Assembly (NCBI RefSeq): GCF_009914755.1
Contig: NC_060933.1
DNA length: 64,000 nucleotides
Reading direction: 5' to 3' (one strand)
From: the human T2T-CHM13v2.0 reference genome, Homo sapiens
Shown: piece after piece, positions 57,258-59,099 of the stretch
How positions within the stretch are numbered: the stretch's first letter is position 1
Layout of the letters: each line of letters opens with the position of its first letter
Translations under genes and position numbers: made by a program
The notes under the pieces: generated by a model
The model's database searches: none
What the model saw: only the letters and a program-made list of their open reading frames with translations
Told to the model about the DNA's origin: nothing

Positions 57258-58165
57258 AAAGAAGAGAGAGGAGACAGACTTTAAAAAAGAAAAACATCTT
57301 TCCCAGTACAGCAAAGAGGGCCCAACGAACAGGCCCCAGGTTTCAATATGTGTGCAAGGGGTGTGTGGGGGGGGGGAGAAAGAGGGGGAGGGAAGAGTGC
57401 TGAATGGATGTTAAGACTGTTTGCCGCACAAAGAAAATACAGTTTTAAAAAGAAAAAAGAAAACCATGAAGCTGATGATGGTGAAAGAAGAGCAGCCCAT
57501 TCAGCACCAGGCAAAGAGGGGCAAAAATGAAGGGAATGGGCGGTGGGAAAAGTTCACCAACGTATGAGGATTAAAAATAACAAAACCCATAACAAGGCCC
57601 CACAAGTGAACAACAACAACAACAAAACACCACCTCTTGGGTCCCCCCCTTGCACACTGTTGTCTATTTCGGCTTTGAAAGAAGCAGGAAACAGCAGCGT
57701 TGGAAAAGAAGAAAATTAAAGAAAGAACAAATTCTTATCTCTTCACCTGACCCTCCTCCTCAGACCAGACCTAAGGGAAAGATCCAGCATCCGCATCGGA
57801 AAACTGTGGCTCCCTCTCCCGCTCGGCTCGCAGCCCCCCAAGCTCCCGCTCCATCCCTGAAGTGCGGCCGGCGCAGGGCCGGGGCCGGCGGGCGGCGCGG
57901 CGCCCACACCCCCGACCCAGCCGCGGCGCGCAGGGTCCATTGTAAACAAGCCCGGGGAACAGAGCCCCTCGGCGGCGGCGCCGCAGCGGCAGCCCCCGTG
58001 TCAGGAGTGAGACCCCAGCACAGCCACACTCGGCTCGCACACACGAACACACACACGCACGGACACACGCGTTCACACGCAGCCACACGCTCCCACACAC
58101 ATGTAGAGACCGAAGAATATTCACCTTGGCTGTGGATTATTGTGGTGTTGTTGGTGGGTGATGGA

Positions 58166-58230
58166 GATGGTGGTGGTGGGGAGGAGGAGGAGGAAGAGGA
58201 GGAGGAGGAGGAGAGGAGTAGTTGTTGTTG
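58166..58230 (-). repeat. Trinucleotide repeat cluster in exon 1: (CAA)3, (TCC)n, (CCA)n
   Basis: Plus strand TGG, GGA and TTG runs. Confidence 0.92.
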
Positions 58231-58304
58231 ATGGGTAACAGTCGCCAGGACTACGGTGACTATGGCGCTTGATTCACAAGGCAACGGTTGCTATAACTCA
58301 CAAA

Positions 58305-58351
58305 AGAGAGAGAGAGAGGGAGAGAGAGAGAGAGCGAGAGGGAGAGGGAGA
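58305..58351. repeat. (GA)n/(CT)n tract in the 5' leader
   Basis: Seen directly. Confidence 0.92.
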
Positions 58352-59099
58352 CACTCGCACGGGGAGGGGTGGGGGAGGGAAGAGGGGAGGAGGCGGGCCC
58401 GGCCAAGCCGCCGGAAGGGGAGGGCGCAGCGCTGTGACTGACGGCCCCCAAACCCGGGTGGGGTGGCGGGGCGGCGGGGTGACGGGGCACGAGGCCGGGA
58501 TTCCACCGCAGGACTCCGAAGAGGTGCGCCTATGCTTGGCTGGGGCTGAGGTCACCAAGAGTCCTCTCGGAGGGACGTTACTACACGCGCTGGCGAGGCC
58601 CAGGAGTCGTGGTGCGAGGGGTACTATCTGTGAAACGAGGGCTGCCTGTCCCAGCAGCCAGCTTTGTACAGAGACGTCCCGGAGCCACGAGAGAGTAACG
58701 GCTAACCCGGGGGAGGGGGTGGCGAGGGTGATTCCAGGCACTTTGTGAAGAAACGAGCTATGGCGAGGGAAGAATCCACTTTGAAGAGCGGCCCCCGCCC
58801 TGCCCGATACGTTACTTCCGGGGCGGGGCGGGCAGAGGGGCCCGGATGTGCCGCCGCTTTTTAGTTTCTGAGGCGCCGGCGGTGTTCCTGGTAGCGTCAG
58901 CCTCCTGGCTTTTCCTTTTCCTGGACGCTTCAGGGCTCCGCGGCCTGCGCTAGACTGGAGGGTCCGCGTCACTCTCGCCCTCCTGCTTTCCGCGCTCTCA
59001 CCCGCTCCCGCCTCCTGAGGGCACGACTTGTGGAGGAGCGCGGGCGGCGGGGCGTGAGCGAGCTGCCTCTGCCGCCATCTTAGAGAAGGCGAGCGTGGG

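What the first reader, a model, noticed from the sequence alone, without database searches (positions are those of the whole stretch)
58125..58248. CUG-initiated open frame in the 'non-coding' first exon: candidate N-terminally extended RFX3 proteoform
Seen: on the minus strand GTAGTC-CTG-G (CTG at 58248-58246) has G at -3 and G at +4, the optimal context for non-AUG initiation. The frame is stop-free for 41 codons to the donor, (L/M)ATVTHQQQLLLSSSSSSSSSSSPPPPSPSPTNNTTIIHSQ, plus 1 nt (phase 1). Every simple repeat inside this frame is a triplet (CAA, TCC, CCA), whereas the repeat upstream of the in-frame TAG at about 58293-58291 is a dinucleotide. Recalled, not visible here: the next RFX3 exon starts 8 nt before the AUG (AGACCATC-ATG). 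If so, G+AGACCATC reads E-T-I and the frame joins MQTSETG..., a 44-aa extension. Inference: a low-complexity Q/S/P tail typical of transcription-factor activation regions, whose poly-Ser length could be polymorphic. I do not know whether it is already reported.
Basis: partly seen in the sequence, partly recalled or inferred. Interest (0 to 1): 0.8.

Follow-up and report, generated by a model that had tools for sequence, protein, structure and literature searches.

The report
In-frame CUG in RFX3 leader
The first, non-coding exon of the human RFX3 gene holds a CUG codon in a strong start context that joins the normal start codon in frame, so a slightly longer RFX3 protein is possible, but nothing available here shows that it is made or matters.

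Summary
CTG sits at 58248-58246 (minus) with G at -3 and +4. There are 41 stop-free codons plus 1 nt to the donor, and an in-frame TAG at 58293-58291. The recalled junction is also right. The ATG exon lies at chr9:3399375 (T2T) and starts AGACCATC-ATG after ...tttcag, so CTG-to-ATG is 132 nt with no stop, a 44-aa extension.

The arguments for coding are weak. This stretch has 6 G in 124 nt, and 61-64% of 5000 dinucleotide shuffles are stop-free in any frame. Two of the three real frames are open.

The real strength is context. AGUCCUGG scores 24.7 in a published reporter table (optimal AUG = 100). Six other near-cognates tested in the exon score 0.2-2.3.

The G of the CTG and the +4 G also belong to an RFX half-site. 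That half-site is part of the densest such cluster in the window.

RFX3 is absent from the published conservation, Ribo-seq and peptide lists I could read. I could examine neither Ribo-seq data nor orthologous sequence.

Verdict: a legitimate, testable candidate, probably a minor by-product. Interest is modest.

The parts
58246..58248 (-). CTG (CUG) candidate start codon, with G at -3 (58251) and G at +4 (58245)
   Evidence: The context AGUCCUGG scores 24.7 in the supplementary table of PMC5778536.
58125..58248 (-). 41 stop-free codons plus 1 nt (phase 1), running from the CTG to the exon-1a donor. The partner ATG exon lies outside the window at chr9:3399251-3399375 (window -72749 to -72625, minus strand): acceptor tttcag|AGACCATC, then ATG and 39 codons, then the donor gtaagg.
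   Evidence: Of 5000 shuffles, 61-64% are equally open. The ATG exon is shown.
58291..58293 (-). In-frame TAG that bounds the frame upstream. The largest possible extension is 58 codons.
58125..58379 (-). RFX3 exon 1a (NM_001282116.2). It has no ATG and its donor is AAG|gtgaat.
   Evidence: Hub table.
58180..58218 (-). (TCC)n array, 13.3 copies, read as LLL then S11 in the CTG frame. It contains one TCT and one unit short by a base.
58142..58179 (-). Imperfect period-3 array (CCA/CAC), read as PPPPSPSPTNNTT
58305..58351 (-). (CT)n dinucleotide array upstream of the TAG
58234..58292 (.). Cluster of six GTNRCY (RFX-type) half-sites, the densest in the 64-kb window. The half-site at 58241-58246 holds the G of the CTG and the +4 G.
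   Evidence: Of 63,926 windows of 75 nt, 22 hold 6 half-sites, and the ten listed as best all start at 58219-58228. The window mean is about 0.4 per 75 nt.
58227..58239 (-). X-box-like 13-mer GTTACCCATCAAC, one mismatch to GTNRCC-N1-RGYAAC (consensus recalled)
   Evidence: It is one of 13 such matches in 64 kb, counting both strands.
58238..58263 (-). Predicted 9-bp RNA hairpin. The C of the CUG lies in the loop and the U and G lie in the 3' arm. No structure is predicted downstream.
   Evidence: Whole-exon fold: -25.2 kcal/mol, z -2.39.

Best explanation
Exon 1a is an ordinary G-poor 5' leader. It is built from a cluster of RFX-type DNA half-sites followed by CT, TCC and CCA microsatellites. 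By geometry it holds one strong-context CUG in frame with the RFX3 AUG.

Scanning 43S complexes meet no AUG and only weak near-cognates before this CUG. A minority probably start there and make RFX3 with 44 extra Ser/Pro/Thr/Gln-rich residues. Most would scan on to the AUG, which has A at -3.

I take this extended form to be a minor, unselected by-product, not a conserved functional isoform. The frame, the phase and the context score are shown. Use of the CUG and the lack of selection are inferred. My odds are about 0.5-0.6 that initiation at the CUG is measurable, and about 0.1 that it has a selected function.
For: The frame and phase are confirmed.

The direct exon 1a to ATG-exon junction is inferred from the exon count. 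A cetacean RFX3 model (P0015) gave 15 exon-sized matches on chr9. Its 14 residues FGDLNAVSPGNLDK were missing from the two flanking exons. That makes at least 16 coding exons, and the selected transcript has 17.

Predicted RFX3 models in the protein database use the same acceptor in the same phase. Of the 13 proteins I fetched from 111 hits, 11 are long models that read straight through the two leader codons and the Met. Nine of those read ETIMQTSETG, one reads ATIM and one reads ENIM. The human X4 start exon ends ATGAATGGAG|gtaagg at chr9:3424607.

Context scores: AGUCCUGG 24.7, against 0.7, 2.3, 0.4, 0.6, 0.4 and 0.2 for six other near-cognates of the exon. Of the 19 near-cognates listed, these 7 were looked up. 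There is no ATG in the 263-nt leader.

For 'unselected', openness equals chance. RFX3 is not in PhyloSET (60 genes), the recalculated PhyloCSF list of the addendum, RiboSET (390 genes), or a list of 192 peptide-supported upstream regions.

The half-site cluster overlaps the CUG. One passage states that RFX1 represses the RFX3 promoter (PMC5760533).
Against: I examined no Ribo-seq track, no orthologous exon 1 and no population data, so neither use of the CUG nor lack of selection was tested directly.

Absence from the published lists is weak evidence. The relaxed Ribo-seq list (Supplementary Data 2 of PMC9789052, 3451 genes) was too large to read and one xlsx file was unreadable. The pipeline of that paper also removes transcripts whose extension overlaps coding exons.

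Peptide lists cannot see this extension. There is no K or R in the 44 residues, nor in the first 72 residues of RFX3.

The one TCT inside the TCC run is synonymous in the CTG frame. This is a single observation that leans towards coding.

The CUG lies in a predicted 9-bp hairpin, which could lower its use. No hairpin lies downstream of it, and such a hairpin would raise its use.
Confidence: 0.55

Rival explanations
1. This is a true, selected, CUG-initiated N-terminally extended RFX3 isoform. Its Ser/Pro/Gln-rich tail modifies activation, stability or localisation, and its poly-Ser length may vary between people.
For: The CUG has a strong context, 24.7 on a scale where the non-AUG maximum is 50.4. 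It is in frame with no stop. There is no competing upstream AUG. All simple repeats inside the frame have period 3. The TCT interruption is synonymous in this frame.
Against: Openness is expected by chance in 61-64% of shuffles. The triplet arrays carry 5% indels. RFX3 is absent from both PhyloCSF-positive lists and from RiboSET. No database protein carries the exon-1a peptide: 0 hits at E <= 10 among 1866 candidates, and in the HMMER scan 7 of 8 hits cover only intron-derived residues (from residue 42 on) while the eighth is a weak match (35% identity, E 8e-5) from residue 24. The G of the CTG and the +4 G are explained by an RFX half-site.
Confidence: 0.1
2. The leader is purely non-coding and the CUG is effectively not used. 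The sequence around it acts as DNA, as an RFX-binding auto- or cross-regulatory X-box cluster just downstream of the start site, and the repeats are neutral microsatellites.
For: The region holds six GTNRCY half-sites in 75 nt, the densest cluster in 64 kb, plus a one-mismatch X-box-like 13-mer at 58239-58227. The palindromic arms fold into a hairpin that encloses the CUG. One passage states that RFX1 represses the RFX3 promoter. RefSeq lists silencer and enhancer elements that overlap the two ends of exon 1a (hub table). RFX3 is absent from the Ribo-seq-based RiboSET.
Against: A DNA role does not stop ribosomes from using the CUG in the mRNA. A score of 24.7 in a reporter table predicts appreciable initiation. 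The hairpin is short. RFX occupancy was not tested here, and the X-box consensus I used is recalled.
Confidence: 0.3

Closest known systems
Non-AUG-initiated N-terminally extended proteoforms (e.g. PTEN, MYC and FGF2, as recalled; catalogued in PMC9789052)
   Same: It has a near-cognate CUG in a favourable context upstream of the annotated AUG and in frame with it, no intervening stop and no upstream AUG. The expected mechanism is the same: leaky scanning with partial initiation.
   Different: There is no ribosome-profiling, conservation or protein evidence. RFX3 is absent from the lists of that paper that I could read. The extension is almost wholly low-complexity repeat.
AUG-initiated N-terminal RFX3 extensions in predicted gene models (human isoform X4, P0018, and 10 other mammalian models)
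   Same: They use the same acceptor and the same phase-1 junction, giving ...ETIMQTSETG.
   Different: They start at AUGs in other, alternative 5' exons. Their extensions are unrelated to each other and to the exon-1a peptide. None of the 13 proteins I fetched contains it.
RFX X-box cis-elements and RFX auto/cross-regulation (RFX1 represses the RFX3 promoter, passage in PMC5760533)
   Same: There is a cluster of GTNRCY half-sites and a one-mismatch GTNRCC-N1-RGYAAC match over 58227-58292, immediately around the CUG.
   Different: Binding was not tested. The consensus is recalled. The element lies inside the transcribed leader, not upstream of the annotated start.

Membership tests
Non-AUG N-terminally extended proteoform | Near-cognate start codon in a favourable context upstream of the annotated AUG | tested here: met
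   CTG at 58248-58246 with G at -3 and +4. AGUCCUGG scores 24.7, against 0.2-2.3 for six other near-cognates of the exon.
Non-AUG N-terminally extended proteoform | In frame with the main ORF in the spliced mRNA, with no stop between | tested here: met
   124 nt plus 8 nt makes 132 nt with 0 stops. The direct exon 1a to ATG-exon junction is inferred from at least 16 coding exons out of 17 (hub table).
Non-AUG N-terminally extended proteoform | Ribosome initiation peak and in-frame footprints over the extension | not testable with these tools
   No Ribo-seq data are at hand. RFX3 is not in RiboSET (390 genes). The relaxed list was unreadable.
Non-AUG N-terminally extended proteoform | Coding-type conservation of the extension (PhyloCSF > 0, 3n indels) | not testable with these tools
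   No vertebrate genomes are held. Scans for orthologous contigs found none. Indirectly, RFX3 is absent from PhyloSET and from the recalculated list.
Non-AUG N-terminally extended proteoform | Detection of the extended protein | not testable with these tools
   RFX3 is absent from the supplement of PMC11317171. That is uninformative, because the first K/R lies at residue 73 of RFX3, so the N-terminal tryptic peptide would be 117 residues long.
RFX X-box cis-regulatory element | Palindromic GTNRCC-N(0-3)-RGYAAC motif or clustered half-sites (consensus recalled) | tested here: met
   Six half-sites in 75 nt, the highest density in the window. One 13-mer with one mismatch at 58239-58227.
RFX X-box cis-regulatory element | Occupancy by RFX proteins and an effect on transcription | not testable with these tools
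   The only support is a passage saying that RFX1 represses the RFX3 promoter. The sites used in that work were not seen.

The most novel reading that the evidence does not exclude
RFX3 is a dosage-sensitive neurodevelopmental and ciliogenic transcription factor (recalled). In this reading it is made in two forms from its main transcript. The longer, CUG-initiated form would carry a 44-residue Ser/Pro-rich tail of variable poly-Ser length that changes its activity. Its share would be set by start-codon stringency factors. The CUG itself would be embedded in an RFX-binding site, so that the same bases serve as DNA operator and as translation start.
Probability: 0.07. Interest if true: 0.6.

Novelty: new member of a known kind. 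Interest (0 to 1): 0.3.

Why it matters
RFX3 is a dosage-sensitive gene (recalled). If the long form exists, variants in exon 1a would have to be read as coding changes. These include CUG to AUG, new stops, and non-3n changes of the TCC array. Antibody and western data would also need re-reading.

Published work finds thousands of such extensions without signs of selection (title and abstract of PMC9789052). One more candidate is therefore of limited surprise until translation is shown.

The practical value here is a precise, cheap test and two warnings. Trypsin-based proteomics cannot see this extension. Much of it is simple repeat, so short ribosome footprints may not map uniquely there.

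Tried and rejected

2. Cross-species comparison of exon 1a failed.
- The 55-aa exon-1a peptide found no protein of 98-2000 residues: 0 hits at E <= 10 among 1866 candidates.
- The 176-aa genomic frame found 5 ORFs and 8 ORFs from unnamed contigs. All strong hits cover only the intron and exon-1b part, from query residue 68 on, and they switch frame between species. One weak hit (P0119, 35% identity, E 8e-5) reaches residue 24 and is probably low-complexity.
- Scans for contigs encoding that conserved part found none: genome contigs gave 138 pattern matches with 0 confirmed, and viral contigs gave 35 with 0 confirmed. The first attempt failed for lack of a conserved stretch.

3. Literature. [quoted passage not shown] The two I opened were irrelevant: one concerns an intronic repeat (PMC11488627), the other an unvalidated cassette exon (PMC3411717). 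PMC12804389 was seen only in the search listing. A looser search listed 12 of 492 papers, and none of the 12 mentions RFX3.

4. Another TIS dataset (PMC8287933) could not be read because paper reading closed.

5. A downstream hairpin as an enhancer of CUG use is not predicted.

6. Repeat-associated non-AUG translation was considered and set aside. The arrays are short (about 13 units) and a conventional strong-context CUG lies upstream.

7. My first search for the human X4 start exon used a motif in the wrong phase and found nothing. The corrected motif found one site.

Full report
**What is there**

On the minus strand, exon 1a of RFX3 (58379-58125) holds no ATG. It has a CTG at 58248-58246, flanked by G at -3 (58251) and G at +4 (58245). 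From that CTG the frame runs 41 codons, LATVTHQQQLLLSSSSSSSSSSSPPPPSPSPTNNTTIIHSQ. One base is then left before the donor AAG|gtgaat. The nearest in-frame stop upstream is TAG at 58293-58291.

Tandem Repeats Finder reports two period-3 arrays inside the frame. One is TCC at 58180-58218 (13.3 copies, 89% matches). The other is an imperfect CCA/CAC array at 58142-58179. A period-2 CT array lies at 58305-58351, upstream of the TAG.

The assembly is held, and the window is chr9:3472001-3536000. A Pfam scan placed RFX3 coding exons at chr9:3350440-3350547 and 3334108-3334293. I fetched chr9:3350001-3472100.

The quoted 11-mer AGACCATCATG occurs once in that stretch, at 3399375-3399365 on the minus strand (window -72625 to -72635). 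It follows ttaatctatttcag and opens MQTSETGSDTGSTVTLQTSVASQAAVPTQVVQQVPVQQQ, which ends at a gtaagg donor. The single leftover G of exon 1a plus AG-ACC-ATC reads E-T-I and then the ATG. An in-silico splice from the CTG is 249 nt long, divisible by 3, with no stop and the first Met at residue 45.

Two results argue that exon 1a joins this exon directly in the selected transcript.
- A near-identical cetacean RFX3 model (P0015) gave 15 exon-sized matches on chr9.
- Its 14 residues FGDLNAVSPGNLDK are missing from both flanking exons.

Together these give at least 16 coding exons. The selected transcript has 17 exons, one of which is non-coding exon 1a (hub table). This is an inference from counts, not a read of the RefSeq record.

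Independent gene models use the same acceptor in the same phase. A search with the exon-2 peptide gave 111 proteins at E <= 0.001 among 116 candidates. I fetched the 13 that cover the two leader codons. Eleven of them are long models that read through into MQTSETG:
- nine read ETIM;
- one reads ATIM;
- one reads ENIM.

The other two are short ORFs from unnamed contigs. The human isoform X4 model begins MNG-ETIM. Its start exon ends ATGAATGGAG|gtaagg at chr9:3424607, again phase 1 with a G. None of these extensions resembles the exon-1a peptide, and they do not resemble each other.

**Does the open frame mean anything?**

It does not. The 124 nt contain 62 C, 31 A, 25 T and only 6 G. In 5000 dinucleotide-preserving shuffles, 62.8%, 61.2% and 63.7% were stop-free in the three frames. 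For the full 166 nt after the TAG the figures were 37-40%.

Two of the three real frames are open to the donor. The CTG frame also stays open for 121 more codons into intron 1. The triplet arrays carry 5% indels. Read by eye, the TCC array begins with a unit short by one base, which is why the frame reads Leu-Leu-Leu and then Ser. Triplet periodicity of a microsatellite is not a coding signal. The one mild point for coding is that the single TCT inside the TCC run is synonymous in this frame.

**What does stand out**

In the supplementary table of Diaz de Arce et al. (PMC5778536), AGUCCUGG scores 24.7. According to the text of PMC9789052, that scale sets the optimal AUG context at 100 and non-AUG starts range from 0.2 to 50.4. 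I looked up six other near-cognates of exon 1a, out of the 19 listed. Their scores are:

| Context | Place or frame | Score |
|---|---|---|
| UUG | 58284, in frame | 0.7 |
| AUA | 58263, in frame | 2.3 |
| CUG | 58241, out of frame | 0.4 |
| GUG | 58360 | 0.6 |
| GUG | 58354 | 0.4 |
| AUC | 58273 | 0.2 |

The CUG at 58248 is thus the only strong start signal in a 263-nt leader without an AUG. The lack of an ATG is itself unremarkable, since 28% of mononucleotide shuffles also lack one. The main AUG has A at -3 and C at +4.

The exon folds somewhat better than shuffles (-25.2 kcal/mol, z -2.39). A 9-bp hairpin spans 58263-58238, with the C of the CUG in the loop and the U and G in the 3' arm. 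No structure is predicted downstream, where a hairpin could enhance initiation.

**A second reading of the same bases**

I counted GTNRCY half-sites on both strands (consensus recalled). The stretch 58234-58292 holds six. Only 22 of 63,926 windows of 75 nt reach six, and the ten listed as best all start at 58219-58228. The window-wide mean is about 0.4 per 75 nt.

The half-site at 58241-58246 is GGCGAC on the minus strand and contains the G of the CTG and the +4 G. A 13-mer, GTTACCCATCAAC (58239-58227), matches GTNRCC-N1-RGYAAC with one mismatch. It is one of 13 such matches in the window.

A passage in PMC5760533 states that RFX1 represses the RFX3 promoter (passage only). Part of the favourable start context, and any conservation of this segment, could therefore reflect a DNA element.

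**Published catalogues**

In the supplements of PMC9789052 that could be read (8 of 9 spreadsheet files), RFX3 does not occur. These hold PhyloSET (60 genes), RiboSET (390 genes), the untranslated control set and the localisation sheets of the relaxed set. RFX2 occurs once, in a sheet I did not identify.

The relaxed list itself (Supplementary Data 2) was too large to read. One xlsx file and the PDFs were unreadable. The pipeline of that paper scored up to 50 codons upstream of every annotated AUG on a 120-mammal alignment, after removing extensions that overlap coding exons (section 6).

RFX3 is also absent from the recalculated list of the addendum PMC10764858. It is absent from the supplement of PMC11317171, which lists peptide-supported upstream regions. 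That last absence says little. The extension and the first 72 residues of RFX3 hold no K or R, so the N-terminal tryptic peptide would be 117 residues long.

[quoted passage not shown] A looser fifth search did not either. Supplements are not covered by those searches. Paper reading closed, before I could open a further start-site dataset.

**Orthologues**

No vertebrate genomes are held. Protein searches with the exon-1a peptide and with the 176-aa genomic frame found only ORFs from unnamed contigs. These cover the conserved intron and exon-1b part and shift frame between species. Scans for such contigs found none. Coding-type conservation of exon 1a therefore remains untested here.

**Verdict**

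The sequence observation is confirmed, including the recalled phase.

My best reading (0.55) is an ordinary leader in which a strong-context CUG probably yields a minor, unselected, 44-residue-longer RFX3. The rivals are no use of the CUG at all, with a purely DNA-level role (0.3), and a selected functional isoform (0.1).

It would be a new member of a well-known kind. Interest is modest until Ribo-seq, an alignment or a CUG/CUA/AUG reporter decides it.

Noticed in passing
window 58227-58292: This is the densest cluster of RFX-type half-sites (GTNRCY) in the 64-kb window: six in 75 nt, plus a one-mismatch X-box-like 13-mer. It lies inside the transcribed leader of RFX3 itself. It is a candidate auto- or cross-regulatory site.
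   Followed up: partly
window 57747-57885: The annotated exon ends 57885 and 57882 have no AG upstream (gccgcccgccg|GCCCCGG). They are therefore alternative transcription starts (exon 1b), 240 nt downstream of the exon-1a donor. Exon 1b carries three upstream ATGs (57854, 57796, 57790), all out of frame with the main ORF. Spliced directly to the ATG exon, they stop after 27, 40 and 38 codons.
   Followed up: partly
window 57763-58100: The start of intron 1 and exon 1b is conserved in ORFs predicted on unnamed contigs (P0113-P0118, 56-85% identity in the HMMER scan). The reading frame switches between them, which marks conserved non-coding DNA, not protein.
   Followed up: partly
chr9:3424607 (window -47393), minus strand: This is the start exon of the predicted human RFX3 isoform X4. 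ATGAATGGAG|gtaagg gives MNG and then joins ETIMQTSETG. Other mammals have unrelated AUG-initiated extensions on the same acceptor, which looks like prediction noise rather than a conserved isoform.
   Followed up: partly
PMC9789052, supplementary file 9: The paralogue RFX2 appears once in the localisation sheets of the non-AUG extension study. I did not establish which gene set it belongs to.
   Followed up: no
window 58038-58098: Imperfect GT/GC-rich repeats (periods 8-12) lie just inside intron 1, on the minus strand gtgtgcgtgtg....
   Followed up: no
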